Source: Candidatus Parcubacteria bacterium (GTDB lineage Bacteria; Patescibacteriota; Minisyncoccia; Phycocordibacterales; CAIZLB01). Taken from it: DNA of 59,014 bases. The notes under the pieces are model-generated. The model saw only the letters and a program-made list of their open reading frames with translations. It was not told where the DNA came from and ran no database searches. A program made the position numbers and the translations under genes. Shown piece by piece: positions 15,425 to 57,630 of the stretch (position 1 is the first letter of the stretch; the number at the start of each line of letters is the position of its first letter). The stretch lies in contig JBDKLC010000005.1 in NCBI GenBank assembly GCA_039795775.1, positions 251,624 to 310,637 on the forward strand, given 5' to 3'.

Positions 15425-15503
15425 GCCAGTTTGGGCCAATTTGAGTCAATTTTGGCAAAATAACGTCAAATTGGTCAAAAAAGCTAAAAAAGCTAAAAAA
15501 GCG
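15425..15503. repeat. Iteron-like repeats followed by three tandem 9-mers
   Basis: gccagtttggg (15425), gccaatttgag (15436), tcaattttggc (15446), gtcaaattggtc (15465); then aaaaaagct, aaaaaagct, aaaaaagcg (15477-15503). An almost pure A/T tract follows to about 15600. Confidence 0.5.
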
Positions 15504-15599
15504 AAAATACAGAAAAAACCAAAATTAATTTTTTTAAAATTTATAAGAAAATTAAAAATATAAATAAAATTTAAAATATTTTTTGTTAAATAAAGTAGA

Positions 15600-16198
15600 A
15601 GGGAATATGAAATTTGTCTAAAAGTTTAGTTTCGAATTTTAGTCTTAAGGGTCAGAGGGTATATGTCTTTCCCAGTCATATAAATGTCGCACAATATATC
15701 TTTTGCGACATACTCCTATAGGGCACCTAGGTCTTTTCGGGCTTTCTGACTCTTATTACCCAATCCACTTATCGGCTATGAATCCTATTCTTTTAATCGA
15801 TTTTTGAGCCCGTATAATCGCTTATAAGGCCTTCTACTTTATATAGATGATAGGTTGACCATCTATTAACTAACGGTTAGCGAACCACTTTATAAGGTCA
15901 TCCAAATTTAAGGGTTTTTACTAGGGGACTGACTTCCCTATTGTTTGCCTGAAGCCGTGAACTGAATCTTTGATAGTAACCCTTGACTTATTACAACCCG
16001 GCCACCCAGTAAGTAATAATTAATAAGTTGAATGTTCAGTAGTAGATATATTTGTGACCAGTCTCATTTGCCATGTAGCACGTGCTACATATATACATGG
16101 TGCCGTAGATCGATCTATGGCTGGTGCCAAGTCATACATGTGTCTACTACCGAGAATTTAAGATACTTTGAAGGGGAGTCGCACTTCCCTTTTTATAG
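15600..16198 (+). ncRNA. Candidate ORF-less plus-strand transcript(s) with duplicated terminator module; class unknown
   Basis: No credible ORF. Two copies of aatttaag-N9/10-agggga-loop-cttccct (15905-15939 and 16155-16190). The second is followed by T5. Both stems contain a G-T pair that only works on the plus strand. Confidence 0.3.
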
Positions 16199-16239
16199 GA
16201 TAAAAAAACTAAGGCTATATAAATAATTTTGTAAATAAT

Positions 16240-16699: not shown

Positions 16700-16733
16700 C
16701 TTGTTTTCTCAGGCTATATTGCTTCCTTCTTCC

Positions 16734-17966
16734 TTATACCGTGGGCAGACCGAATTCTCCGGCTCGCTCGTTGAAGGCAGCAGCTTCTTCGTCACTCATT
16801 TCGAGCAGTTCACGCACTGGCGCATTGCCGTCCGCAAAAGATTCGAAATTTGGACCTTTCCAAGGTTCGATGCCACTGCCCGACTTCAGTTCGTCATACG
16901 ACACCGTAGGTTGGTTGTCGACGACTCGCCGAATATTTTCGGTGCCGACTTTAAGACCTTGGCGAACGTTCTGGAGGAAGAGGCACTCACCTTCATAGAC
17001 GCCCCATGCTCCCTTCGGGTTACGAGCATGTTCGAGCCAAAGGACGCTCCCGAACAGCGCCGCTGTTTCTGGATTGAAGATTCCGAAGGTGGCAAATTTG
17101 CCAGCCTGATCTTTGAACGGCAACCCGTGCTGACGGTGACGGAATCCCGGAACGCTCCGATCAAAGAACGCGCTTTTGGCGTGTCCTGGGACAATGATGT
17201 CCGCAGCGACGGCATCTTTGACCAGCGTAACCGTGTCATCTTCCTCCTTATCGGGATGAGATACATCCAGACCCACCTTGGTAGCTGCTTTCGCTTCATC
17301 ACTCTGCAGAAAGTTCCGCATGTTGATGATGTCCATGGTGCTTTGAAGAGTCTGCATGACGTGCCAGATCTCGAAGCCGATTTCGACTCCGCACGCAGTC
17401 GCGTGTTTGAGCGTCTCTTCCCATTGCATAGCCAAAAAGAGCAACGCCTGGTGTTTAAGACGACGAGGGAGTGTGCTCCACTGATCGTGGTGAGGGAGGT
17501 CTCGTCCGCCACAGAATGTCTGATGTCGGTTGATGCCGAGGAGCTGACTCAGCGTGAGGACGTCGCGGATGCGAGCGTGGGCAGCCTTCTCGATATCTTG
17601 GATAGAAGCATGTTTGCGCGCTTCTGCCTGCGGGTCAAAGCCCTTGAAACGTGGCCAATAGACTGGGTTGCCGCTGGCGAGTTGACCGTCTGTGTGACTT
17701 TCGAGACGGACGATTTGGAGCCCGATTTTGCGGTAGTGTTCCACAAATTCGTGGCGCGCATCGGCGTTGCTGATGAGTCCTTGGACGTCGAGCATGCCAG
17801 TGTGCATGCTGATGCCAGTGACTCCGCATTCTCCGACGCAAAAGCGCCAGAGGTCGTCGGCCGTTTTGAATTGGCCCGGCTTATCTCCAACGCCTATGGC
17901 GAGGAGCTGTGGTGTGAATACCGCTACTTGCGGCTTTTCTAGTTTTGCAGGAGCAGGTGTGCTCAT
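16734..17966 (-). CDS. GC-rich foreign-looking CDS, tentatively xylose-isomerase-like TIM-barrel (sugar phosphate isomerase/epimerase family)
   Basis: 410 aa. Bracketed by terminators on both sides. The family assignment is from general resemblance only and needs an HMM search. Confidence 0.55.
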   Translation of the reverse strand: MSTPAPAKLEKPQVAVFTPQLLAIGVGDKPGQFKTADDLWRFCVGECGVTGISMHTGMLDVQGLISNADARHEFVEHYRKIGLQIVRLESHTDGQLASGNPVYWPRFKGFDPQAEARKHASIQDIEKAAHARIRDVLTLSQLLGINRHQTFCGGRDLPHHDQWSTLPRRLKHQALLFLAMQWEETLKHATACGVEIGFEIWHVMQTLQSTMDIINMRNFLQSDEAKAATKVGLDVSHPDKEEDDTVTLVKDAVAADIIVPGHAKSAFFDRSVPGFRHRQHGLPFKDQAGKFATFGIFNPETAALFGSVLWLEHARNPKGAWGVYEGECLFLQNVRQGLKVGTENIRRVVDNQPTVSYDELKSGSGIEPWKGPNFESFADGNAPVRELLEMSDEEAAAFNERAGEFGLPTV

Positions 17967-18026
17967 TGTCGTTTATTTTCTATCTAGGTGTTTGTGTTCC
18001 TTGTGTATTTCGTTGTAAAACGAAAA

Positions 18027-18050
18027 ATAGCGCACCAAGGGGTGCGTTAT
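18027..18050 (-). terminator. Intrinsic terminator ending the asnB / small-membrane-protein unit
   Basis: cgcacc / ggtgcg stem extended by A-T pairs. A5 on the plus strand gives a T-run on the minus strand. Confidence 0.65.
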
Positions 18051-18164
18051 AGCCGTGAGTTATCAAGGAACGATTAGCCGTTCTAAATACTACACAAAAA
18101 TATCAAAACGTCAATGTTTGTAGCCCTATAAATTAAGTTTTTGATAAATCAAAAAAATAGACTT

Positions 18165-18404
18165 TCAGTTCGCAACACTCTTCACAAAACCGAAGATTTC
18201 GAGGAGGTCAGCCCAGACGAGTCGAATCATATCTCGTACATATATAGCGAAATCACGAACCCATTGCTTTGCAAGAAGCTGTGTGAGATCAATTCCGAGG
18301 AGGTGTAATATAACGAGCGCTACAATCACTACGACGATCAATTCTACGAATCCTTTTTGATTATTTTTTGAAGATTTGTTCATGATACCTTTGATACAGT
18401 GCAA
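18165..18404 (-). CDS. Hypothetical small membrane protein
   Basis: 79 aa with one TM helix. Abuts the asnB stop. Confidence 0.5.
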   Translation of the reverse strand: MHCIKGIMNKSSKNNQKGFVELIVVVIVALVILHLLGIDLTQLLAKQWVRDFAIYVRDMIRLVWADLLEIFGFVKSVAN

Positions 18405-31669: not shown

Positions 31670-33526
31670 CTAGGCTGCGTTGGCTGCCGGATCCACTGGC
31701 CGCAGATGCGACACTTTTTGCATCAACGCTTCCATTTCTCCTTCGAACGCTTTGGCATAGGTGCCACCGGCTTCGACGAGTTGATCGTGAGTGCCGTCAC
31801 CCACGACTTGGCCATCCTCAAAGGCGATGATTCGCTTCGCTAGGCGCAGCGTCGCCATGTTGTGGGAGATGAAGAGTGCCGTCACTGCAGGAGGTAAGTC
31901 TCGCAGCTGAGCAAAGAATTTCGAACGGGATTCCGCATCGAGTTCTTTTTCGGGTTCATCAAAGATGAGCGTATGTCGCCTTGCGAACATTCGGCTTGCT
32001 ATTGCTAGCCGTTTCCATTCGCCTCCGGAGAGATCTACTCCTCCGAGCTCTTCCCCCAACTGTGTGTCGAGGCCGTCACGCATTTTTTCTACCACTTTGT
32101 CTGCGTTGGCATACTGAAGCGCCTCGTGGATCTCTTCGTCTCTGGGCGTTTTCCGGATATCTCCGAGCCCAATAATTTCCCGCAGGGTGAATCGATACGG
32201 GTAGTGACGTTGGAGCAGAACGGCGAGTGACAGTTGCCACTCACTTGGGTCGATCAACTTGAGATCGACACCGTTCAGAAGAATGACGCCTTCGGTCGGA
32301 TCGTGAATGCGGCACAGAAGTGACACAAGGGTTGATTTCCCCGATCCATTTTTTCCAAAGACACCAATCTTATCTCCCGGACGAATTGTGAGGTTGACGT
32401 TGCGGAGCGCAAACTTGCCCTCTTCTTGACTTGGGTATTTGAACGACACGTCCTTGAACTCGATTGTTGGAGGTTCATGCAGCTGGAGTGAAATGGGCTC
32501 TTCTGCGACGATGAGTCGCGGTTTGAGCGCAAAAAACTGCTGCACGTTGTCCAAGTAGCGAGCCATAGTGAACTGATCGTTCAGAATATTGAGGAGCGAG
32601 TTGCTGTAGCTTCGGAGGGAGTTGAGTCCCATGAAGAGTAAGCCCATCGTCCCCACCAGGATTTCTCCTTTGAGCGCTGCTGAAACCACGTAATACATGC
32701 AATACACAAGTCCGATCATCGAGATGATCTCACTGAGTGCGGCCAGGGCGAAGCGACGTTTTTCAATTTTCGTCACATCGTCGATCAGGCCTTTGTTGAA
32801 GGTTGAGATGATGCCAATGAGAAACTTTGCACTGTGGAAGAGCTTCGTTTCAATCAAGGCGGCGGGGTGAAGGAAGCAGCGACTTGCATTGTTCCTCCAC
32901 TTGGCGCGCTCAGCACGCTCCTCTCCTACTTTCCACTGAACTTTGCCGATATAGAGGTCGGCGATGAATTCAGGGATAATAAAAAGAATGAGCATGAGAG
33001 CGAGAGTTACGCTGTAGCTGCACACGATGACCAGCGCGGAAATGATGCCGATAATATGTGTGAGTCCCTCGAACTGATGGAGTGTAATGTCTACAGCGAC
33101 GTTCCAACTATACTGGGATTCTTGAATGCTACGCTCTATTTTTCCAAATTCTGGTGATTCAAGCGTAGCGATGTCGAGTTTGAGCCGTTGAGCCCTTACT
33201 CGATCTTGCATTGCAGTTCGCACACGCCATTGCCAGCATGTCTTGAGGCCGACGACGGCGATGCGGACGGTGGATGCGAGCACGAGGTAGAACCCGTATG
33301 CCCACAGTGTCTTGAGGACGATATCCGAATTGTGCGTTTGCGCACCAAGTTGGATTTTGTCTCCCATGACGGCGGTGAGTTTTGCGGTGACGAACGAAAC
33401 AACTGTTCCGATCATCATCCCAGCTGCAATGAGCCAGGTGAGCACCGGTGCCAGTGGTTGAGTTTCTTTGAAGGCGATAATGCCAACGCCGAAAAAGCGT
33501 CGCAGTGTTGCTCTTAGTTTGTTCAT
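31670..33526 (-). CDS. ABC exporter, fused permease plus ATPase (GC-rich island)
   Basis: 618 aa. Six-TM N-domain, Walker A GKNGSGKST, signature LSGGEWKR, Walker B LIFDEP. Confidence 0.85.
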   Translation of the reverse strand: MNKLRATLRRFFGVGIIAFKETQPLAPVLTWLIAAGMMIGTVVSFVTAKLTAVMGDKIQLGAQTHNSDIVLKTLWAYGFYLVLASTVRIAVVGLKTCWQWRVRTAMQDRVRAQRLKLDIATLESPEFGKIERSIQESQYSWNVAVDITLHQFEGLTHIIGIISALVIVCSYSVTLALMLILFIIPEFIADLYIGKVQWKVGEERAERAKWRNNASRCFLHPAALIETKLFHSAKFLIGIISTFNKGLIDDVTKIEKRRFALAALSEIISMIGLVYCMYYVVSAALKGEILVGTMGLLFMGLNSLRSYSNSLLNILNDQFTMARYLDNVQQFFALKPRLIVAEEPISLQLHEPPTIEFKDVSFKYPSQEEGKFALRNVNLTIRPGDKIGVFGKNGSGKSTLVSLLCRIHDPTEGVILLNGVDLKLIDPSEWQLSLAVLLQRHYPYRFTLREIIGLGDIRKTPRDEEIHEALQYANADKVVEKMRDGLDTQLGEELGGVDLSGGEWKRLAIASRMFARRHTLIFDEPEKELDAESRSKFFAQLRDLPPAVTALFISHNMATLRLAKRIIAFEDGQVVGDGTHDQLVEAGGTYAKAFEGEMEALMQKVSHLRPVDPAANAA

Positions 33527-39557: not shown

Positions 39558-40517
39558 CTACTCTTCGATAGTCAATCCAACATTCTTCTTTGCAACAGCA
39601 AGTCGCATATCAGCCTGAGCACGAGCTCGTTCGCCTCCCTCCTTCAATATTCGCAAAACAGCTTTTTTGTCTGCAGCGATAGCCTTTCGACGTTCTCGAA
39701 GTGGTCGAATGAACGCTTTTATGTCTTCCGCGAGCAATTCTTTCAACACTTTATATTTTCCTTCATGTTCTGCATATATTTTCTTGAGCTCATCTTCAGA
39801 TCGGAAAAGCTGGTGAATTGCATATACGTTTACAGGAAGCCCTCCTGATGAATCAGTCACAATACTCATCACAAGTTTCTGAATTTCGTCGTCTTCTGCA
39901 AATAAAGGAATATAGTTCTTGTAACTCTTACTCATCTTTTGACCGTCGATGCCAGGCGTTGTTTGAGTTTCTTCTTTGATGAGTTCTTGAGGGAGCTTGA
40001 ATGTGTCTCCGTTTTGTCCGTAAATACGGTTGAACTTTTCAGCAATATCTCGAGCGATTTCAACATGCTGCTTCTGATCTTTCCCTACTGGTACGAGGTC
40101 GGTGTCATAGAGCAAAATATCAGCAGCCATGAGAATCGGATAGTCGAATGTGCCAACATTTACTTCTTTGTTTTTTGCTTCAGCATCTTTGAAGGCATGT
40201 GCTCGTGAGAGATACGGCATTGTTACGATTGTATTCAAGATCCATGTGAGCTCTGTGTGTGCAGGTACATCAGACTGCTTAAAGATAACTGACTTTTGAG
40301 GATCGAGGCCGATGGCCAAATAGTCTATTGCGAGATTGAGGGTGTTTTCTGCCATCTCTTTTGCATCTTGCACAGTGTTGAGCGCATGAAGATCAGCGAT
40401 CATAAAATAACCCGTATAGTGGTCTTGAAGGTCAACGAATTGCTTCATTGCTCCAAAATAGTTACCGAGATGCGCCTGTCCTGATGGTTTTACTCCTGAA
40501 AGAATCGTTTTTTTCAT
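39558..40517 (-). CDS. trpS: Tryptophan--tRNA ligase
   Basis: 319 aa. SGVKPSGQAHLGNYFGA (HIGH-type) and KMSKS. Confidence 0.95.
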   Translation of the reverse strand: MKKTILSGVKPSGQAHLGNYFGAMKQFVDLQDHYTGYFMIADLHALNTVQDAKEMAENTLNLAIDYLAIGLDPQKSVIFKQSDVPAHTELTWILNTIVTMPYLSRAHAFKDAEAKNKEVNVGTFDYPILMAADILLYDTDLVPVGKDQKQHVEIARDIAEKFNRIYGQNGDTFKLPQELIKEETQTTPGIDGQKMSKSYKNYIPLFAEDDEIQKLVMSIVTDSSGGLPVNVYAIHQLFRSEDELKKIYAEHEGKYKVLKELLAEDIKAFIRPLRERRKAIAADKKAVLRILKEGGERARAQADMRLAVAKKNVGLTIEE

Positions 40518-40571
40518 AAATAGATGTGTTGACTAAATGGTAGCAGAAAATGAGCAAAAATTAAAGAAAAT

Positions 40572-40614
40572 ATAAAAAAAGAGGAGGACCGCACGTGCGA
40601 GACGTGTGTCCTCC
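40572..40614 (-). terminator. Canonical intrinsic terminator ending the upstream non-coding unit
   Basis: Minus strand ggaggacacacg-tctcgca-cgtgcggtcctcc followed by T7 (plus-strand A-run 40574-40580). Confidence 0.8.
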
Positions 40615-41015
40615 AATACCTGATTGGTATTCACTTACATTCAAAGGCATTCGCCTCCACGACGAGTGCCGTGGGAATTTGGGTGTCGAGCCTACAGGCT
40701 TTGACTCGAGTTGTGCTAGTTGACGACCTCAGGGACTACGCCTCACGCGCCACGATGGCGCTGAGTGAAAATGCTGCAAAACCCGACGGGTTGCAGACCT
40801 TGGATGCGTTCTGTGCGAACGCTGCTGGAGGGCTCTCTGAGAGCCCGTGTGTATGTGGTTTGATAATGTTCACCCCCCTTCTGTAATGTCCTGGATACCC
40901 AGTACTCAGGACCTAGGCATAACCCTAGAGGCTTAGAAAATCTTCTCCTTACGACGTTCCGTGGAACTGGCCTGTGTATACGATACCACGTCCTTGCTGA
41001 GAGCGCAAAATCGGA
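40575..41015 (-). ncRNA. Candidate structured non-coding RNA of unknown class (about 440 nt)
   Basis: GC-rich block without a protein-like ORF. TATAAT on the minus strand at 41027-41022. At least six perfect GC-rich hairpins. Own terminator. See findings. Confidence 0.45.
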
Positions 41016-41232
41016 ATTAACATTATATAATTTGACATATTTAATACCTGTGTTATTTTGATACCCATGCAACACATGCATTCAAAACTAAATAACTGGC
41101 GATTCACCTCACCTATTAAGGCCGGGGTCTATTCTCATTGCCTTTTATTTAGCCGCGAATCTTGTATTGGATATTCTCATACTTTTACTACGCATACTGC
41201 GTAATCTCTCGTATATAACTCCCAATTGAAGC

Positions 41233-41262
41233 ATCTCGGCTGAATAAAAGCCGAGATTTTTC
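41233..41262 (+). terminator. Orphan plus-strand intrinsic terminator (no ORF upstream)
   Basis: atctcggc / gccgagat stem, 9-nt loop, T5. Confidence 0.6.
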
Positions 41263-41340
41263 TTTGTGCATTTATTTGCCGCCCGCTTCTGCGTATGAAG
41301 CAAAACAAACCTAGTACATTACAACTGCATACTCTGAACT

Positions 41341-42528
41341 ATGAACCAACATCAAATCCAACGTAACATTTGGCTCTATAAAGTATTTTCCCTTTTTGGG
41401 GAACCACTTTTTTGGGGACCAATTCTCATTCTCACACTCAACGACCTTGCACACATGTCTCTTAAAGAGGTGTATATCTGCGAGTCAGTTGTCGTTGTCC
41501 TTATCATCGTGTTTGAAGTCCCAACAGGATCAATTGCTGACATGCTTGGAAGGAAAAAGACAATTTGTATTGGTCAGTGCTTTCTATTTCTTAGCGCACT
41601 GACATTTGCATTCATGCACAATCCCTTCATGGGATGGATGGCCAATATCCTTTGGGCAATTGGCTTCTCATTTCAATCCGGGGCTGATAGCTCCCTCCTC
41701 TACGAAACTCTCAAAGAGGGTGGAATGGAACATATGAATAAGCAAATCAAGGGTAGAAACTTCGGCAGCAGACTGCTGCTCGTCGCGTTTTGCTCTCTTC
41801 TGTCGGGATACTTGGCTGATATACATCTCCGCCTTCCACTTCTTGTGGGTATTCCCTTCCTCATCATTCCACTCATCGTGTCCTTTTTCTTCATTGAGCC
41901 GAGGCACGAATACAGCGCTGCACATGCGTATACAATGAGTGGACAAATTGATCTGATAAAAAAGGCATTTGGAATTGTCTTTCGATCAAAAGCGTTGCGG
42001 TGGATTATTGGATTCACTGCACTCATTGGTGTGTCATCAAAACTGTGGTTCTTTACATACAATCCGTATTTCAAAATTGTCGGGTTGGATGTGAAGTATG
42101 TTGGAGTCATTTTCTTTTTTCTTAATGTGACGGCGTGGTTTACTTCACGCTACGCAAAAGAGATTGAAGATTACCTTCAAGAAAAAAATTCCATCGTATT
42201 GATGATTGTGCTTATTGGTGTGCCTCTTATCCTCATGGGAATGTTCCCAACATGGATGGGTGCATGTTTAGTCCTACTTCCAAATCTGACGCGAGGCATT
42301 ATTGTGCCTTTTGTTGATGACTACACAAACAAACACCTTTCATCTGAAAGTCGCTCGACTGGGCTATCAATCCGGTCGTGCATCACAAGCACTATTCAGG
42401 TGTTCGCCATGTGGGGCTTTGGCGTGCTCGTTGAGAGCGCCGGAGTATGCACGTCCCAAATCATATTGGGTATTGTGGTGCTTATTGTCGGAGCCATGTG
42501 CTTCGCTCAGTATCGCAATATAAAATAA
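41341..42528 (+). CDS. MFS transporter
   Basis: 395 aa, about 12 TM helices. GSIADMLGRKK loop 2-3 motif. Confidence 0.8.
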   Translation: MNQHQIQRNIWLYKVFSLFGEPLFWGPILILTLNDLAHMSLKEVYICESVVVVLIIVFEVPTGSIADMLGRKKTICIGQCFLFLSALTFAFMHNPFMGWMANILWAIGFSFQSGADSSLLYETLKEGGMEHMNKQIKGRNFGSRLLLVAFCSLLSGYLADIHLRLPLLVGIPFLIIPLIVSFFFIEPRHEYSAAHAYTMSGQIDLIKKAFGIVFRSKALRWIIGFTALIGVSSKLWFFTYNPYFKIVGLDVKYVGVIFFFLNVTAWFTSRYAKEIEDYLQEKNSIVLMIVLIGVPLILMGMFPTWMGACLVLLPNLTRGIIVPFVDDYTNKHLSSESRSTGLSIRSCITSTIQVFAMWGFGVLVESAGVCTSQIILGIVVLIVGAMCFAQYRNIK

Positions 42529-42627: not shown

Positions 42628-44232
42628 TTACTCAGCGAGATCGAGTTCGATAAAGAAGCTTGAACCTTTATTTTGGCCGGCTGATTCTGCCCATACTCGT
42701 CCGTGGTGTGCTTCTACCATCTTCTTTGCTACATACAATCCAAGACCTGTACCGAGAATGTTTGTCTTTGACGCATCAGGAGCACGAGTAAACTTTTCAA
42801 AAAGTTTTGGTAATACTTCAGGAGCAATACCCACGCCAGTATCAGAGATAGTAATAAGTGCCTTTGCTTTTTGTGTCGGGTTGCCGACATTTGTTTTTGA
42901 AAGCCACACATGAATAGCACCTTTAGGTGTGTATTTAATTGAGTTATCAATAAAGTTACCGATTACTTGCTTGATCTTACCCATATCAGCATTGATCATA
43001 AATTTCTGGTTCGTATCGACATCAAAATCAAGTGTGAGGTTTGCTTTCTCAATGTTTGGTTTGAGCTCGACTACGACTTGAGCTACAAGGTCCTTCATAT
43101 CAAATGTTGTAAAATCGTATTGCATTCTACCTTGTTCAATTCGAGATACGTCTAAATAATCGTTTACAAGTACAACAAGGTCCTGAGTTGATTTATACAT
43201 CTTTTCAATTGCCCCTTTTACTCCTTCATCCATATTTCCAAAGTCTCCCTCAATAATCATCGAAGCATATCCTTTTACCGCAGTGAGCGGGCCTCGAAGT
43301 TGATGACTAGCAAGTGATACGAATTCCGATTTCTGTTGATCGAGCTCTTTGAGACGGTCGTTAGCTGTTGAAAGATCTTCAGCAAGTTTTTCTATCTTTT
43401 GACGAGTCTTTACCTCTCTGTTTACACTATTTACGAGAAGGACACTGAAGAAGATCACCAATATAAACATGAAGAAGTTGATGAGCCACTGTTCGATAGT
43501 TGTAGTACTGAGAAGGTTGAAGAGGAATACCAAAACGAGCGCAGATGAAAAGAGCTGCGCTGAAATAACTTTTGTACTAAGCAGTTTGTATCGAAGTACT
43601 CCGTACACCATGAATACGATGAACAAAATCACTAAGTAGTTTCCAAATGGATATACATTAAAAAATTGAGGGAAAAAGTTTGAAACCCCTCCGACATATC
43701 CCATCAACCCACCGAGGAGCGTGTTTCGAATCTGGCCTCGAATAACAGAACCAGGTTCGTTCTTTTGAAGCTCTCGCAAAAGGATAAGGAGCGTAATAAT
43801 TGCATAACATACATAGTATGCGAGGAATACAACATAGAATTCACCTGGGTTTACCCAAAAGAAGTCATACTTTGCGATAACACCTTGTTTGAAATATGGT
43901 GTAACACTAAATACAGACATTGCAAACGCTGAAAATATTGCTAGGTTTCGCAGGCCATTATTTTTATACTGAACAAGTTCTGAAATAAAAATAAAATAAA
44001 GCGCAGGCAAAAAGATAGCTGCAATATCAAGAATGTACTGCCACGTAAGTGCTACTTGCTGGTCGTGTGTTGATGTCACGCCATATAAACCAAGTGCCCA
44101 TACAGAGAATGAAATAGATGTAAAAAACCATGCTCTATTTACCTTACTTGCTCTATCAATTCGATAGACAAGAAAACTGAATGCAATACTACTTAAAGAA
44201 AGTATGAGACTGGAAATTCCGAAGAGATTCAT
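42628..44232 (-). CDS. Sensor histidine kinase with polytopic N-terminal membrane domain
   Basis: 534 aa. H-box SHQLRGPLTAV; N, G1 and G2 boxes (DTGVGI, GTGLGL). No response regulator in the window. Confidence 0.85.
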   Translation of the reverse strand: MNLFGISSLILSLSSIAFSFLVYRIDRASKVNRAWFFTSISFSVWALGLYGVTSTHDQQVALTWQYILDIAAIFLPALYFIFISELVQYKNNGLRNLAIFSAFAMSVFSVTPYFKQGVIAKYDFFWVNPGEFYVVFLAYYVCYAIITLLILLRELQKNEPGSVIRGQIRNTLLGGLMGYVGGVSNFFPQFFNVYPFGNYLVILFIVFMVYGVLRYKLLSTKVISAQLFSSALVLVFLFNLLSTTTIEQWLINFFMFILVIFFSVLLVNSVNREVKTRQKIEKLAEDLSTANDRLKELDQQKSEFVSLASHQLRGPLTAVKGYASMIIEGDFGNMDEGVKGAIEKMYKSTQDLVVLVNDYLDVSRIEQGRMQYDFTTFDMKDLVAQVVVELKPNIEKANLTLDFDVDTNQKFMINADMGKIKQVIGNFIDNSIKYTPKGAIHVWLSKTNVGNPTQKAKALITISDTGVGIAPEVLPKLFEKFTRAPDASKTNILGTGLGLYVAKKMVEAHHGRVWAESAGQNKGSSFFIELDLAE

Positions 44233-48271: not shown

Positions 48272-48682
48272 ATGAAAAGTCTCCGTTTGTTACTCGTGCT
48301 CGGTGGCAGCATTGTCACCTCACTCACTGGGTGCTCAAGCATTCAGCAGCCAAAGCCAGCCGCCACGTGCGTGTTGGACATCCCTCACAACCTCTCGTCT
48401 ATCAGCGAGGGCCCGAGCAAGGCCAATGCCTTCAGCAAGAGCATTCTGTTGCTTGAAGCTGACTTGCCCGAAGTCAAAGATGGCCCGCTGGATATTCGCG
48501 ATCCGCTTCAACCAGAAGCTGAACCGGTAAAGGCTCACAAAAAGCCTCCGCAAAAGATGAAGAAGTCTCCTGCCTCTGAGGAGGTCAAACCTCCCACCGA
48601 GTCAAAGCCAGCTCCGCCTCCACGTCCGAGAAATCGGAGTGATGACCCCGAGCGTGCGATGTATGCGATGGTATCCAATTGA
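48272..48682 (+). CDS. Pro/Lys-rich lipoprotein, GC-rich island, opposite strand between dnaJ and dnaK
   Basis: 136 aa. Signal peptide with lipobox LTGC; low-complexity P/K/E-rich tail. Confidence 0.6.
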   Translation: MKSLRLLLVLGGSIVTSLTGCSSIQQPKPAATCVLDIPHNLSSISEGPSKANAFSKSILLLEADLPEVKDGPLDIRDPLQPEAEPVKAHKKPPQKMKKSPASEEVKPPTESKPAPPPRPRNRSDDPERAMYAMVSN

Positions 48683-48727
48683 GAACCGCGCTTCGTCGCT
48701 TTGCGATCCATTCGCTACTCATAGAAA

Positions 48728-48756
48728 CAGCCCCGGCACTTACGTGTCCGGGGCTG
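48728..48756. terminator. GC-rich hairpin shared by the convergent lipoprotein gene and dnaK
   Basis: cagccccgg / ccggggctg stem with 11-nt loop. Confidence 0.75.
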
Positions 48757-48773
48757 CTTCTGTTCAGATACGC

Positions 48774-50684
48774 TTATTTTGTTTCAGCGTCCCGAACATT
48801 TCCTTCTGCACCTTGTGCTCCTGCATCACCTGATGCTTGAGCTTGGTCGCCCGTAGGATTTGCTCCGGCTGCTCCAGCATTAGCATTTTTCTGGAGAGCT
48901 TCGCCAATCTTTGAGAGTTCTGAAGAAAGTTCTTCTGTTGTCTTTTTGATTGCTTCGATATCTGTACCATCTTTTGCAGTCTTTGCAGCAGCAACTTTTG
49001 TCTCTACTGCTGATACGACATCTGCCGATACTTTATCTTTATTATCTTTCAAGGCTTTTTCAGCTGTGTAGATCATTTGTTCAGATGTATTTCGAACTTC
49101 TACTTCATCTTTCTTCTTCTGATCTTCTGCATTGTGCATTTCAGCATCTTTCTTCATCTTTTCGATATCTTCTGGTGTAAGACCTGAACTTGCTTCGATT
49201 CGGATAGACTGTTCTTTGTTTGAAGCCTTATCTTTTGCTTTTACCTGAAGAATACCGTTGGCATCTACGTCGAATGTTACTTCAACTTGTGGCATACCTC
49301 GTGGAGCTGGTGGAATACCATCAAGGATGAATCGTCCAAGGGACTTGTTGTCTTTTGCCATTGCTCGTTCACCCTGCACAATATGAATTTCTACTGATGT
49401 CTGGTTGTCTGCAGCTGTAGAAAATACTTGTGATCGTGATGTTGGAATTGTTGAGTTCTTATCGACAAGTTTTGTTGATACACCTCCCTGAGTTTCAATA
49501 CCAAGTGAAAGTGGAATAACGTCGAGGAGAAGAATATCTTTTACATCTCCAGCGATAATACCTCCTTGAATAGCAGCACCGAGGGCTACTACTTCGTCTG
49601 GGTTGATTGATTTGTTAGGTTCTCGGCCGAAGAGTTCTTTTACAGCTTGCTGCATTTTTGGCATTCGAGTCTGACCTCCCACGAGAATCACTTCTTCAAT
49701 TTCGTTGATCTTGAATGGTGAAGCTTCGATAGCTCGCTTTGTGATCTGCATAGCTCGTTCGATAAACTCGTCTGTGAGTTCTTCGAGTTTTGCTCGAGTC
49801 ATTTTCATTACGAGGTGCTTTGGACCGTTTGCATCTGAAGTAATGAATGGGATGTTGATTTCAGTTTCAGTTGCTGTAGAGAGCTCAATCTTTGCTTTTT
49901 CAGCAGCTTCGTCGAGTCGCTGAAGAGCGAGTGCATCGCCTCGTACGTCGATACCTGAATCTTTTTTGAATTCATCAGCAATCCAGTTGAGGATTTTCTG
50001 GTCGATGTCTTTACCTCCAAGGTGAGCGTCACCGTCTGTCGCTTTTACTTCTACGATATCAGCACCTACTTCGAGAATTGAGATGTCGAATGTACCGCCT
50101 CCGAAGTCGAATACAGCAATCTTTTCATCCTTCTTTTTGTTGAATCCATAGGCAAGAGCAGCAGCAGTTGGTTCGTTGATGATTCGTTTTACATCAAGAC
50201 CTGCAATTTTGCCGGCGTCTTTTGTGGCCTGTCGCTGGGCATCGTTGAAGTAGGCTGGTACAGTAATGATAGCTTCTGTTACTTTTTCTCCGAGCTTTGC
50301 TTCTGCATCATTCTTGAGCTTGGTAAGAATCATTGCTGAGATTTCTTCTGGAGAATAATCTTTGTCGCCGATTTTTACTTTTACACCGCCATTGTCTGCT
50401 TTGTTAATTTCGAATGGAACAGAAGATTTATCTTTTTGTACTGCTCCTTCGTCATAATTGTGTCCAATAAATCGCTTAATACCAAAGACTGTGTTCTTTG
50501 GGTTTGTAACCGCTTGTCGCTTCGCAAGAAGACCAACAAGTCGTTCACCTGTTTTTGATTGTGCAACGATAGATGGAGTAGTTCGCACGCCCTCTGTGTT
50601 TTCAAGAATTCGTGGTTCCCCTACTTCCATAATCGCAACCGCTGAGTTTGTTGTTCCTAAGTCGATACCAATAATTTTAGCCAT
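48774..50684 (-). CDS. dnaK: Molecular chaperone DnaK (Hsp70)
   Basis: 636 aa. [18 protein letters not shown] and the rest of the Hsp70 signature set. Confidence 0.97.
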
Positions 50685-55534: not shown

Positions 55535-55559
55535 TGTAATTTAGTGATTATTTTTCTTC

Positions 55560-55676
55560 TTACCCTTGTCGCTGTTTATGACGAGTATTTGTCTTGCAAA
55601 CAATATATACATAGCCCTTTCGTCGGACTACTTTACAATCTTTACACTTTGGTTTTACTGAAGCTTTTACTCGCAT
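55560..55676 (-). CDS. rpmJ: 50S ribosomal protein L36
   Basis: Below the ORF-track length cut-off. My translation is [38 protein letters not shown] (38 aa, zinc-ribbon C/C/C/H pattern), in the canonical infA-rpmJ-rpsM position. Confidence 0.9.
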
Positions 55677-55805
55677 GACTAGGTTAAATGATTACGTATA
55701 AAAAGACGTGGGTGTAAATATACTACACCCGCTATGAAAAGTAAAGCAAAACAAGGCTTTTTGCTGTGTGGCATCGGCCAAAGACCTTTTTTAGTGATTT
55801 TTGGC

Positions 55806-56033
55806 TTAGAATCGACGGATTATACGGCCTTTTCCACCGTGTATATCCTGCTCTATACTTACCCTATCCCCAATGAGCACTCGGATTCTATTGAGCTTCA
55901 TCTTCCCGCCGAGATACCCCAAAATGAGTTCTCCTTGTCTTTCTCCTTCAAGTTGAATTCGAAATTCAGCATTTGGTAACGCTTCTGTAACGACTCCTGA
56001 AAGTAATAATTTTCCTGCTTTTGGTGTATCCAT
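55806..56033 (-). CDS. infA: Translation initiation factor IF-1
   Basis: 75 aa. S1-like OB fold (G.V.EALPNAEFRI.LE..GKMK.NRIR.L.GD.V); operon position. Confidence 0.85.
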   Translation of the reverse strand: MDTPKAGKLLLSGVVTEALPNAEFRIQLEGERQGELILGYLGGKMKLNRIRVLIGDRVSIEQDIHGGKGRIIRRF

Positions 56034-56097
56034 TCGGTGTTATAGGTTGCTATAAATATATCAGTTTTTTGACTAATGGTCAATTTAACTGCTAAGT

Positions 56098-57630
56098 CTA
56101 CTGCTTAACTGTGATTTTATCGGCTCTTGGGAGTGACTTTTTCCAGAAAGGAGTGATAGAAATGTCTACAGTTTCTACATTATCCATACCTTGAATGGCT
56201 TCTATTGCCTGTACTTTTGATAATGTACTCACTGCGCGAGCCACCTTGTCGGCTGTAAAGACAGGTTTGATTGTCACACTGCCGTTGAGGCTGATCTTTG
56301 ATGATCCGGCCTTGAGTGTTGCTGCTGTAGTCCCTGATGGGAATGCTACTGAGAGGCTACTAAGGTCAGCATCATATGTTACTTTTGATTCTTCTTCAGA
56401 CGGAACATCTCCGCCAGCATTTGCTACCAAGATGTGTTTTATAAGACTGGCTTTGTCCATAATGACAGCAGTGGCTGTAGCTCGTTCTGCTACTGTAGAT
56501 TGGCCATCAGTTCCTGGAGTAATTATTGGAGATGTATAACTCACAATCATACTGTCACTTACATACACAAAGTTTTCAGGAAGCTGAGCAGTAATTTGGT
56601 TTACGAGTTGATTTTTGAGATCTTCTCGTAGTCTGTCCTCTACTGTGCCATTACTCGAAGCTCCAACTGTTGTTGGCGCAGCAGTAGTAATTGATCCACC
56701 AGCAAGTGCTCCATTTGATCGTGCATAGAAACTAGTATATTTTTCTGTTCCTTTAAGACCAGGCACGGTGAAGTCTTTTGGACCTGAATTGTATTTATCA
56801 CCAACTTGATCGGCAGTAATAGTTGCAGTAACACTTCCTGGAACAGTTTTGCCATCTTTTGTTGTCTTGCCTGGAACTGTTACACCTGTATTTAGTCGGT
56901 AAATAAGACCGTCTGGTGTTTGGAGTCGTGTTGTAGCTATAAGTTCTTGAGGTGAAGTACTGTAGTTATTGTAAATAATTACTTTACCTGTGGCTTTTGT
57001 TCCTGTTTCGGGTGTCTTTGAAGATGAGGTACTTGATGCTGACGGAGTTGATGTGATTTTTTCAGAAGCGTTTGCTGTTGTAGAACTTTCGGCGCTCAAC
57101 GTAATAATGTCATACATGATACCTGTAGAGTCATTAGAGGATGCGAGAGTGAATGACGCGCCATTGAGTGCTACCTGCTCATTTTTTCCACCTACAGTGA
57201 TTGTAGCGTGAGTAAAGAGGCCGATGACAAAATAGCCAACAAGAAGAATAGCCAAAATACCGATTGCCCATGTAACTAACGGTCGCTTACGAGATCCCCC
57301 ACTAAAACTAGCATCACTCTGGTAAAAAGCAGGCTCTATTTCAGATTCGTTAGAGTGTGAAAGCGCCTCGTGGTCATGATGGTAGTGTTCTTCATTTGAA
57401 GAATCCATTGGATGAATAGGAATTGAAATGTTCTGATCTTCATCATGCTGCTTTGTGTGACTATGTAAAGCGTGAGATGCATGAGAAGTTTTCTTCTTTG
57501 GCGCTGGAGGATGATCTACACCACTTGTACTTAGGACTGAACTCTTTTTTCGTTCAGGTAATGGAATATCTCGAATTGACCGTCGCTCGGGATTGTTTGG
57601 AGGAATAATATCTTGATATTTTGGACTCAT
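56098..57630 (-). CDS. Hypothetical membrane-anchored extracytoplasmic protein
   Basis: 510 aa. His-rich cytoplasmic N-terminus, one TM helix (WAIGILAILLVGYFVIGLF), S/T-rich exterior. Confidence 0.6.
   Translation of the reverse strand: MSPKYQDIIPPNNPERRSIRDIPLPERKKSSVLSTSGVDHPPAPKKKTSHASHALHSHTKQHDEDQNISIPIHPMDSSNEEHYHHDHEALSHSNESEIEPAFYQSDASFSGGSRKRPLVTWAIGILAILLVGYFVIGLFTHATITVGGKNEQVALNGASFTLASSNDSTGIMYDIITLSAESSTTANASEKITSTPSASSTSSSKTPETGTKATGKVIIYNNYSTSPQELIATTRLQTPDGLIYRLNTGVTVPGKTTKDGKTVPGSVTATITADQVGDKYNSGPKDFTVPGLKGTEKYTSFYARSNGALAGGSITTAAPTTVGASSNGTVEDRLREDLKNQLVNQITAQLPENFVYVSDSMIVSYTSPIITPGTDGQSTVAERATATAVIMDKASLIKHILVANAGGDVPSEEESKVTYDADLSSLSVAFPSGTTAATLKAGSSKISLNGSVTIKPVFTADKVARAVSTLSKVQAIEAIQGMDNVETVDISITPFWKKSLPRADKITVKQ

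What the first reader, a model, noticed from the sequence alone, without database searches (positions are those of the whole stretch)
40572..41030. Orphan ~440-nt GC-rich, hairpin-dense non-coding unit directly upstream of trpS
The 823-bp gap 40518-41340 is one of three abnormally long non-coding gaps in a tightly packed window. Its left ~450 bp is visibly richer in G+C than the flanks. It has no protein-like ORF; the longest is 112 aa with poor composition. Read on the minus strand, it runs from a TATAAT box (41027-41022) to a textbook intrinsic terminator: stem 40581-40595 / 40603-40614, then T7. Between these lie at least six perfect short GC-rich stems with small loops, at plus-strand coordinates 40888-40912, 40913-40928, 40830-40846, 40774-40796 (bulged), 40747-40761 and 40657-40674. 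There is also a ~20-nt imperfect direct repeat (ccacgg..gtcgt..ggag) near both ends, at 40945-40966 and 40654-40674. I looked for known families and did not recognise them. There are no RNase P P4 strands (GGAAAGUCC / ACAGAA..GGCUUA), no tmRNA acceptor, T-arm or CCA end, and no T-box sequence (GGGUGGUACCGCG-like). I also found no upstream segment that could pair with the terminator 5' arm as an antiterminator. Still, the position immediately 5' of trpS makes a leader or riboswitch-type role an obvious hypothesis. A dedicated promoter, dense local structure and its own terminator all fit a stable structured RNA I cannot classify.
Basis: partly seen in the sequence, partly recalled or inferred. 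Interest (0 to 1): 0.7.

Follow-up and report, generated by a model that had tools for sequence, protein, structure and literature searches.

The report
Orphan GC-rich non-coding spacer before trpS
A 440-base GC-rich, hairpin-rich non-coding stretch ending in a strong terminator really exists upstream of trpS in this tiny CPR-type bacterial genome, but it is not a trpS riboswitch or any known RNA; it is a single-species orphan with no evidence yet of a conserved structure.

Summary
The region 40572-41030 has GC 0.51-0.55 against about 0.40 in the flanks. It carries short perfect hairpins and shows no coding signal. On the minus strand it ends in a strong hairpin plus U-run.

It matches no Rfam family, no tRNA or tmRNA, and no protein in any frame.

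The trpS-leader idea fails. trpS has its own extended -10 promoter (TGCTACCAT, 40545-40537) downstream of the terminator. That promoter type sits 6-13 nt before the trpS ATG in 65 of 75 related genomes, so the trpS mRNA there is leaderless. The nearest relatives have no such unit.

Only the terminator and one 31-nt block have a counterpart, and only in one relative (L083). The other ~360 nt occur in this species alone.

Folding z-scores are no better than those of GC-matched coding DNA from the same window. That window also holds three foreign-looking genes of the same GC content.

My best reading is an independent orphan minus-strand transcription unit, or transcribed spacer, probably of foreign origin. 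Its terminator shields the trpS promoter from upstream transcription. A function for the RNA body is unproven.

The right third of the same gap holds a conserved leader-peptide attenuator for the MFS transporter gene.

The parts
40574..40614 (-). Intrinsic terminator: hairpin 40614-40583 (GGAGGAC..GUCCUCC with an inner ACGU/ACGU stem) followed by UCUUUUUUU (40582-40574).
   Evidence: Sequence. RNAfold gives -19.1 kcal/mol. L083 and L084 have hairpin-plus-U-run equivalents at the same place upstream of trpS.
40615..40975 (-). GC-rich, hairpin-dense non-coding body. Local stems lie at 40615-40631, 40657-40674, 40747-40761, 40774-40796, 40806-40822, 40830-40846, 40888-40912 and 40913-40928.
   Evidence: GC 0.53. 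Hairpins folded one by one. No coding signal in any frame. z-score -2.95 on the minus strand and -1.64 on the plus strand.
40628..40661 (-). The only block with a detectable relative: UCGUGGAGGCGAAUGCCUUUGAAUGUAAGUG. It aligns to L083 3829-3858 (UCGGGAGGCGAUUGCUUCUGAAUUUAGUG) and contains the small hairpin AGGC-GAAU-GCCU.
   Evidence: Local alignment p about 0.004 against 500 shuffles, on the same strand only. First seen.
41022..41027 (-). It has no TG extension and no -35 element.
   Evidence: Not found by the promoter scan.
40980..40988 (-). TGGTATCGT, an alternative candidate promoter of the extended -10 type (TGnTAnnnT) that this lineage uses. It would start the RNA near 40973.
   Evidence: Pattern match. 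Promoter type inferred. Not tested.
40537..40545 (-). trpS's own extended -10 promoter, TGCTACCAT. It lies 19 nt before the ATG (40517) and 28 nt downstream of the terminator's U-run.
   Evidence: The same motif ends 6-13 nt before the trpS ATG in 65 of 75 related loci, against 6 of 225 control windows.

Best explanation
The 440-nt stretch is a species-specific, non-coding, GC-rich segment wedged between two neighbours that are each controlled on their own.

To its right is the divergently transcribed MFS transporter gene. That gene has its own promoter, a leaderless leader-peptide ORF and a terminator/antiterminator, all on the plus strand.

To its left is trpS. Its extended -10 promoter (40545-40537) lies downstream of the unit's terminator. 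The unit is therefore not part of the trpS mRNA and is not a trpS leader or riboswitch.

Most likely (inferred, not shown) the unit is transcribed on the minus strand from a weak start in the divergent promoter region, either TATAAT at 41027-41022 or TGGTATCGT at 40988-40980. That would give an orphan hairpin-rich RNA of 400-450 nt, stopped by the strong intrinsic terminator at 40614-40574.

The one job I can assign with some support is that of the terminator. It keeps upstream minus-strand transcription out of the trpS promoter. In the relative L083 the equivalent terminator ends the histidine-kinase operon just before trpS.

Only the terminator and a 31-nt block next to it are ancestral. The other ~360 nt has the base composition of the foreign-looking GC-rich genes elsewhere in this genome, so it is probably recently acquired or expanded DNA. 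Whether its RNA has a function of its own is unproven.
For: No known RNA family or protein:
- No RNA family, tRNA or tmRNA match.
- No protein relative of the 112-aa ORF among 5.8 billion or 1.8 billion proteins. The only other hit is a spurious satellite-repeat ORF.
- No relative of the 108-aa open plus-strand frame.
- No Pfam hit in any frame; NCBIfam gave only one insignificant hit (E 0.15, 11.7 bits against a cut-off of 198).
- Codon scores sit at or below the low end for real genes, and GC shows no 3-base periodicity: 0.50/0.53/0.56, against about 0.6/0.4/0.6 in the GC-rich genes.

Minus-strand terminator and strand:
- The terminator is strong.
- The minus strand folds slightly better than the plus strand, -161.3 against -156.8 kcal/mol.

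trpS has its own promoter:
- The promoter lies downstream of the terminator, and the arrangement is conserved across relatives.
- The same leaderless geometry occurs at other genes in the window.

Comparison with relatives:
- L083 (trpS 74% identical) has the order kinase, 281-nt spacer with terminator, trpS, and shares only the 31-nt block.
- L084 (72%) has the order kinase, MFS, gap, trpS. It keeps the MFS leader and a terminator but lacks the unit.
- L085, L093, L094 and L095 have no comparable spacer.
- A terminator is retained in the window and in L084 although no co-directional gene lies upstream. This suggests there is still something to terminate.

Foreign-DNA context:
- Three genes in the window have GC 0.52-0.55 and GC3 about 0.6.
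Against: - No expression data.
- Both promoter candidates are weak or untested.
- The unit is identical in the only other assembly compared (L082, Logan SRR35181295), so there is no variation to read.
- Five perfect hairpins against 0.5 expected, together with GC held high in an AT-biased genome, could mean real selection on RNA structure. That would make 'function unproven' too cautious.
- Conversely, the terminator could be a relic of the ancestral kinase-trpS arrangement, and the unit might not be transcribed at all.
Confidence: 0.45

Rival explanations
1. Untranscribed or functionless remnant: a piece of foreign or rearranged DNA (a decayed gene, or a donor intergenic fragment) left between the MFS insertion and trpS. 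On this reading the terminator is a relic of the ancestral kinase-trpS operon boundary.
For: - Found in a single species, and absent from the syntenic relative L084.
- Its GC matches three foreign-looking genes in the same window.
- Its folding z-score is no better than that of GC-matched coding controls.
- 4% of windows have as many perfect hairpins.
- The promoter evidence is weak.
Against: - No protein similarity in any frame, even with full HMMER against 1.8 billion representatives for the main ORF.
- No residual codon periodicity.
- Perfect hairpins are 10-fold over the shuffle expectation.
- A strong terminator is kept in both the window and L084.
Confidence: 0.25
2. A genuinely functional, structurally constrained new large non-coding RNA (acting in trans or as a scaffold), with its own promoter and terminator.
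For: - Non-coding, GC about 12 points above the flanks, and at least eight local stems.
- z-score -4.4 with 0 of 100 shuffles folding as well.
- Ends in a terminator.
- No known family matches.
Against: - No homologue was found: not upstream of trpS in 80 GTDB loci, not in the nearest relatives, and not by motif scans of metagenome and viral contigs.
- The hairpin loops are mostly 3-5 nt closing perfect palindromes. I saw no GNRA or UNCG loops or other tertiary-motif signatures; this rests on my own reading.
- The thermodynamic signal is not distinguishable from GC-rich coding DNA.
Confidence: 0.13
3. A cis-acting trpS leader: a T-box-like or new riboswitch or attenuator whose terminator is conditionally read through.
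For: It sits directly 5' of an aminoacyl-tRNA synthetase gene on the same strand, with a terminator 57 nt (40518-40574) before the ATG.
Against: - trpS has a conserved extended -10 promoter between the terminator and the ATG.
- No T-box match even at E <= 10.
- No upstream segment complementary to the terminator's 5' arm. The best alternative I saw by eye is a 5-bp hairpin that borrows 2 nt of the stem.
- Relatives express trpS without any leader.
Confidence: 0.05
4. Small peptide genes on the plus strand. One candidate is a 42-aa ORF at 40595-40723 behind GAGGAGG-7 nt-GTG. The other is a 43-aa ORF at 40755-40886, MALSENAAKPDGLQTLDAFCANAAGG|LSESPCVCGLIMFTPLL, which looks like a double-glycine leader plus a Cys/Ser-rich core. 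Either could be co-oriented with the MFS exporter.
For: Open frames exist. The SD-like sequence has good spacing, and there is a GG motif followed by a Cys/Ser/Thr-rich hydrophobic tail. An MFS gene lies downstream on the same strand.
Against: - Codon scores of -0.06 and -0.30 are below the 5th percentile of real genes (0.05), and GC3 is 0.45-0.58.
- No homologues.
- The SD-like sequence is simply the complement of the terminator stem.
- No plus-strand promoter was found.
- No modification or processing genes lie nearby.
- L084 has the MFS gene without these ORFs.
Confidence: 0.05
5. A very divergent copy of a universal RNA (RNase P RNA, tmRNA, SRP RNA or 6S RNA) that the models miss.
For: The size and GC-richness in an AT-rich reduced genome fit, and none of these RNAs was found in the 59-kb window.
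Against: - No hit to any of these models even at E <= 10 on a 476-nt query with lax filters.
- ARAGORN was negative.
- ACAGAA and AGUCC-like strings occur in the wrong order for RNase P P4 (my own reading).
- A universal RNA would be present in relatives, but nothing similar was found in the ~7-kb trpS loci held from them; the rest of those genomes could not be searched.
Confidence: 0.02

Closest known systems
T-box leaders of aminoacyl-tRNA synthetase genes (Rfam RF00230)
   Same: A long structured-looking non-coding stretch with an intrinsic terminator, on the same strand and directly 5' of an aaRS gene.
   Different: No Stem I/specifier, T-box sequence or antiterminator, and no model match. 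The terminator lies upstream of the trpS promoter rather than inside its mRNA.
Orphan, lineage-specific small or medium RNA genes, and transcribed spacers ended by intrinsic terminators that insulate a downstream promoter
   Same: A promoter-like element, a non-coding body and a strong hairpin plus U-run immediately before the next gene's promoter. The equivalent terminator in L083 closes the upstream kinase operon.
   Different: At 400-450 nt it is unusually long and GC-rich for such a unit. Transcription has not been shown.
Large bacterial non-coding RNAs found as GC-rich intergenic regions (OLE, ROOL, GOLLD, HEARO, raiA)
   Same: It was detected by the same signature: a long, GC-rich, ORF-free intergenic region in an AT-rich genome. 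That this is how those RNAs were found is from my own knowledge.
   Different: No match to any of their Rfam models. Those families are defined by wide conservation and covariation, whereas this is a singleton.
Horizontally acquired GC-rich islands in the same genome (16734-17966, 31670-33526, 48272-48682)
   Same: The same GC level, 0.52-0.55 against 0.41.
   Different: Those are intact genes with strong codon periodicity. The unit has none.

Membership tests
T-box riboswitch | Match to the covariance model (Stem I with specifier loop, T-box sequence and antiterminator). | tested here: not met
   No RF00230 hit at E <= 10 on 1001-nt and 476-nt queries.
T-box riboswitch | Lies within the 5' UTR of the regulated mRNA, with the terminator between the promoter and the start codon. 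| tested here: not met
   The conserved extended -10 promoter for trpS lies downstream of the terminator. This is inferred from sequence; no transcription start site map exists.
T-box riboswitch | An alternative antiterminator helix that competes with the terminator's 5' arm. | tested here: not met
   No inverted repeat involving 40602-40614 other than the terminator itself.
RNase P RNA | P4 helix and conserved regions CR-I, CR-IV and CR-V; match to the bacterial or archaeal models. | tested here: not met
   No hit at E <= 10.
tmRNA | A tRNA-like domain with acceptor stem, T-arm and CCA end, plus a tag reading frame. | tested here: not met
   ARAGORN found 0 genes in the whole window, and there was no RF00023 hit.
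OLE / ROOL / GOLLD / HEARO / raiA / 6S / SRP RNAs | Match to the family covariance model. | tested here: not met
   0 matches at gathering score in the window, and none at E <= 10 on the unit.
Intrinsic (factor-independent) terminator | A GC-rich hairpin immediately followed by a U-run on the transcribed strand. | tested here: met
   Hairpin 40614-40583 at -19.1 kcal/mol, followed by UCUUUUUUU.
Structured non-coding RNA (generic) | Secondary structure conserved through compensatory changes among homologues. | not testable with these tools
   No homologues were retrieved beyond one 31-nt block in L083. The other assembly compared is 100% identical.
Structured non-coding RNA (generic) | Folding energy clearly below that of composition-matched sequence. 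| tested here: inconclusive
   z-score -4.4/-3.6, but -2.95/-1.64 without the terminator. GC-matched coding controls from the same window span +1.3 to -5.0.
Protein-coding gene or pseudogene | Similarity to any protein, or a codon-usage or periodicity signal. | tested here: not met

The most novel reading that the evidence does not exclude
The unit is the founding, so far single-genome, example of a new large structured RNA of CPR/Paceibacteria. It would be transcribed from its own promoter and act independently of trpS.
Probability: 0.12. Interest if true: 0.6.

Novelty: new member of a known kind. Interest (0 to 1): 0.25.

Why it matters
If the RNA body proved functional, it would be a new large non-coding RNA from the poorly studied CPR bacteria, where almost nothing is known about RNA-based regulation.

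On present evidence it is a single-species orphan that comparative methods cannot reach, so its value is modest.

The analysis does correct a tempting mis-annotation: a long structured-looking region before an aaRS gene is not automatically a riboswitch.

It also gives two more solid by-products:
- trpS, and apparently many other genes in this lineage, is expressed as leaderless mRNA from extended -10 promoters.
- The neighbouring MFS transporter carries a conserved leader-peptide attenuator.

Tried and rejected
- **Rfam.** I ran it at gathering score on the whole window, and at E <= 10 on 1001-, 476- and 316-nt pieces. It gave only junk. The CRISPR-DR22 hit at 41039-41088 scored 25.6 bits against a cut-off of 50. 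It needs a 19-nt insert, its stem is not kept in L084, and no cas genes are present, so I rejected it.
- **ARAGORN.** Nothing.
- **Similarity searches.** Phage and plasmid BLAST gave nothing meaningful. BLAST and nhmmer against 80 GTDB trpS loci gave nothing. Self-BLAST in the window found no second copy, so this is not a REP- or MITE-like repeat, and no terminal inverted repeats join the two ends.
- **Collection scans.** A metagenome scan with the 20-mer shared by the window and L083 gave six hits, all chance matches in unrelated contexts. The same 20-mer gave no hit in viral contigs. Three viral scans with hairpin 20-25-mers gave nothing.
- **Protein searches.** Searches with the 112-aa ORF and the 108-aa plus-strand frame returned only the query itself. 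The one other hit (P0122, E 2.5e-4) is a 745-aa tandem-repeat artefact.
- **Two-sequence RNAalifold of the window and L083.** MAFFT misaligned the shared block, so I discarded the result.
- **Strain variants.** Exact look-ups of trpS, MFS and the 73-aa gene found the same three contigs, all identical.
- **Leader peptide.** No ORF in the unit has tandem Trp codons.
- **Scripts that timed out.** An RNA-RNA duplex test against neighbouring mRNAs timed out and I did not repeat it. A first genome-wide z-score scan also timed out, and I redid it more coarsely.
- **Literature.** Searches found nothing on CPR non-coding RNAs or trpS leaders.

Full report
**Setting**

The window comes from a small-genome CPR bacterium of the Paceibacteria/Parcubacteria type. 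The best trpS matches among species-representative genomes are Parcubacteria, Nomurabacteria and Paceibacterota MAGs at no more than 67% identity. The best match among 5.8 billion proteins is 74%.

The finding lies in the 823-bp gap 40518-41340. On one side is trpS (39558-40517, minus strand). On the other is an MFS transporter gene (41341-42528, plus strand), followed by a histidine kinase gene (42628-44232, minus strand).

**Checking the observation**

- GC is 0.52-0.55 across 40600-40999, against 0.36-0.42 in the flanks and 0.415 for the whole window.
- The longest ORF is 112 aa, Arg-rich, and has no Pfam match.
- TATAAT lies on the minus strand at 41027-41022.
- All the listed hairpins fold as claimed, and two more exist at 40806-40822 and 40615-40631.
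- The minus-strand terminator (hairpin 40614-40583, -19.1 kcal/mol, then UCUUUUUUU) is convincing.

The statistics are less clear-cut.

- Five perfect hairpins of at least 6 bp compare with 0.5 expected from shuffles; 1 of 500 shuffles reached 5. However, 4% of equally sized windows in this same sequence do as well.
- The whole-unit z-score is -4.4 on the minus strand and -3.6 on the plus strand.
- Without the terminator it falls to -2.95 and -1.64.
- GC-matched coding segments from three GC-rich genes in the same window range from +1.3 to -5.0.
- A coarse scan of the window found about 10% of 300-nt windows below -3. Several, including the MFS leader, score much lower than the unit.
- The 'promoter' is a lone hexamer that the promoter scan did not pick up.
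- The direct repeat matches only with gaps, and the repeat finder did not report it.

**What the unit is not**

- No Rfam family reaches gathering score anywhere in the window.
- Permissive searches (E <= 10) on 1001 nt and on 476 nt return only noise. There is no T-box, RNase P, tmRNA, 6S, SRP, OLE, ROOL, GOLLD, HEARO, raiA or intron model among the hits.
- ARAGORN finds no tRNA or tmRNA.
- It is not a repeat: the window holds no second copy, and no terminal inverted repeats join its ends.
- It has no meaningful similarity to phage or plasmid records.
- It shows no sign of coding:
  - The 112-aa ORF has no relative among 5.8 billion proteins.
  - A full HMMER pass over 1.8 billion representatives also found none, apart from a tandem-repeat artefact.
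  - The 108-aa open plus-strand frame has no relative.
  - No stop-free segment in any frame hits Pfam; NCBIfam returned only one insignificant hit (E 0.15, far below its cut-off).
  - Codon scores are at or below the 5th percentile of real genes.
  - GC shows no 3-base periodicity (0.50/0.53/0.56), unlike the GC-rich genes (about 0.6/0.4/0.6).

**Relation to trpS**

This is the decisive point against the leader or riboswitch reading.

Between the terminator and the trpS ATG lies TGCTACCAT (40545-40537), an extended -10 element. The motif TGnTAnnnT sits immediately upstream of the trpS ATG in the closest relatives:

| Locus | Motif |
|---|---|
| L083 | TGTTATATT |
| L084 | TGGTATCAT |
| L085 | TGGTAATAT |
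| L093, L095 | TGCTAAAAT |

In each case it lies 6-8 nt before the ATG.

Across the 75 related loci with a clear start codon, 65 have the motif ending 6-13 nt before the ATG, and 43 of them at exactly 6 nt. Control windows gave 6 of 225. This is the geometry of leaderless mRNAs.

The same geometry appears before several other genes in the window, those starting at 1898, 16593, 24249, 44232 and 39402.

So trpS has its own promoter downstream of the unit's terminator. In this organism the spacing is 19 nt, which would leave a short 5' UTR. The unit is therefore outside the trpS mRNA, and no antiterminator partner for the terminator's 5' arm exists.

**Comparative picture**

trpS of the window, L083 and L084 form a small clade at 72-75% mutual identity. 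All other proteins are at or below 72%.

- **L083** has the same upstream synteny as the window (acyltransferase, HAD, kinase), followed by a 281-nt spacer ending in a terminator, then trpS.
- **L084** has kinase, MFS (inverted), a 400-odd-nt gap, then trpS.
- **Outside the clade**, trpS follows the upstream gene with a gap of 5-90 nt.
- **Window versus L084:** the MFS-proximal ~300 nt are conserved, but the GC-rich unit is absent. L084 has only about 100-150 nt of unrelated sequence plus a terminator.
- **Window versus L083:** upstream of the terminator, only a 31-nt block is similar (window 40661-40628 against L083 3829-3858). This gives p of about 0.004, on the same strand only.
- A metagenome scan with the core 20-mer of that block returned six unrelated chance hits, and viral scans returned none.
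- The only other assembly compared (L082, Logan SRR35181295) is 100% identical across the whole gap; exact look-ups of trpS, MFS and the 73-aa gene found the same three contigs.

No covariation test is therefore possible.

**Origin**

The window contains three genes with GC 0.52-0.55 and GC3 about 0.6, against a background GC3 of 0.25-0.39:

- a xylose-isomerase-like TIM-barrel protein (16734-17966);
- an ABC transporter (31670-33526);
- a 136-aa ORF (48272-48682).

The MFS gene itself has raised GC3 (0.47). It is inserted, in inverted orientation, between the kinase and trpS relative to L083.

In this genome, then, high GC marks foreign DNA at least as often as it marks RNA structure. The ~360 nt specific to this species may have arrived with, or after, the MFS insertion.

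**Most likely explanation**

*Shown or strongly supported:*
- The unit is non-coding.
- It belongs to no known family.
- It is restricted to one species.
- It ends in a strong minus-strand terminator that lies upstream of an independent trpS promoter.

*Inferred:*
- It is transcribed on the minus strand from the divergent promoter region, either TATAAT at 41027-41022 or the lineage-typical TGGTATCGT at 40988-40980. This would give an orphan RNA of 400-450 nt.
- The terminator shields the leaderless trpS promoter from that transcription. It is ancestral: in L083 it closes the kinase operon. It is retained in the window and in L084 although no co-directional gene lies upstream.

Whether the RNA body does anything is open. 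I put about 0.45 on 'independent orphan transcription unit or transcribed spacer'. Of the rivals:

| Rival | Confidence |
|---|---|
| Untranscribed relic | 0.25 |
| Truly functional new structured RNA | 0.13 |
| trpS leader | 0.05 |
| Plus-strand small peptides | 0.05 |
| Divergent universal RNA | 0.02 |

**Side finding in the same gap**

The right third (41030-41340, plus strand) is a conserved regulatory leader for the MFS gene.

- The promoter is TTGACA-16 nt-TGtTATTTT (41032-41059).
- A uORF starts 7 nt after the -10 element, at 41067-41204, which is again leaderless geometry.
- The uORF encodes 45 aa, MQHMHSKLN...SRESCI.... It is conserved in frame in L084 as a 38-aa version, with identical MHSKLN and SRESCI segments separated by the same 19 residues.
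- Three overlapping pairings form a classic 1:2 / 2:3 / 3:4 attenuator:
  - 41088-41103 with 41137-41152;
  - 41142-41170 with 41222-41250;
  - the terminator 41233-41257 plus T-run.
- The antiterminator helix is conserved between the two genomes, with one compensatory change.
- No Rfam family matches.

This looks like ribosome-mediated attenuation of an efflux-type transporter. It is better supported than anything in the GC-rich unit itself.

**Verdict**

The feature is real but ordinary to modest in interest. It is a single-species GC-rich non-coding unit that is neither a riboswitch nor a known RNA. It currently has no evidence of conserved structure or function beyond its terminator.

Noticed in passing
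window 41032-41340 (+); L084 3594-3900 (-): A conserved leader for the MFS transporter gene. It has a promoter at 41032-41059 and a leaderless uORF at 41067-41204 (45 aa), conserved in frame as 38 aa in L084. Overlapping helices 41088-41103/41137-41152 and 41142-41170/41222-41250, plus the terminator 41233-41257, form a 1:2 / 2:3 / 3:4 attenuator. No Rfam match. It looks like leader-peptide (ribosome-mediated) attenuation of an efflux pump.
   Followed up: partly
window 41066-41082 (+): The palindrome ATGCA-N5-TGCAT sits at the start of the MFS leader and uORF and is also present in L084 (ATGCATGTAGTGCAT). It could be an operator, or simply the first hairpin of the leader.
   Followed up: no
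window 40537-40545 (-), and L001-L095 just upstream of trpS: trpS is preceded by an extended -10 motif TGnTAnnnT ending 6-13 nt before the ATG in 65 of 75 related genomes, 43 of them at exactly 6 nt. This implies leaderless mRNA. The same geometry occurs before the window genes starting at 1898, 16593, 24249, 44232 and 39402. The window's own trpS is the exception, with 19 nt.
   Followed up: partly
window 16734-17966, 31670-33526, 48272-48682: Three genes have GC 0.52-0.55 and GC3 about 0.6 in a genome with GC 0.41 and GC3 about 0.33. They are a xylose-isomerase-like TIM barrel protein, an ABC transporter and a 136-aa ORF with no Pfam hit, and are probably horizontally acquired. 16701-17942 (+) and 16734-17966 (-) are long overlapping ORFs on both strands.
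   Followed up: partly
window 48601-48900, both strands: This is the strongest local folding signal in the window (z -7.6 and -6.1). It includes the hairpin CAGCCCCGGCAC..GTGTCCGGGGCTG at about 48730-48757, between convergent genes, and is probably a bidirectional terminator.
   Followed up: no
window 15440-16239, 17967-18404, 55535-56097: Other long gaps without a long ORF (GC 0.33, 0.37 and 0.38). Parts of them have low folding z-scores: 15901-16200 (+) at -5.5, 18001-18300 (+) at -4.9, and 55801-56100 (+) at -4.3. None has an Rfam match at gathering score.
   Followed up: no
L083 3720-3975: The 281-nt spacer between the histidine kinase and trpS in the closest relative folds with z -3.2 and ends in a strong terminator. 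It shares only a 31-nt block with the window unit and has no Rfam match.
   Followed up: partly
window 41341-42528 versus L083 and L084: Relative to L083 (acyltransferase, HAD, kinase, trpS), the window and L084 carry an MFS gene inserted in inverted orientation between the kinase and trpS. The window's MFS gene has raised GC3 (0.47), which is consistent with acquisition.
   Followed up: no
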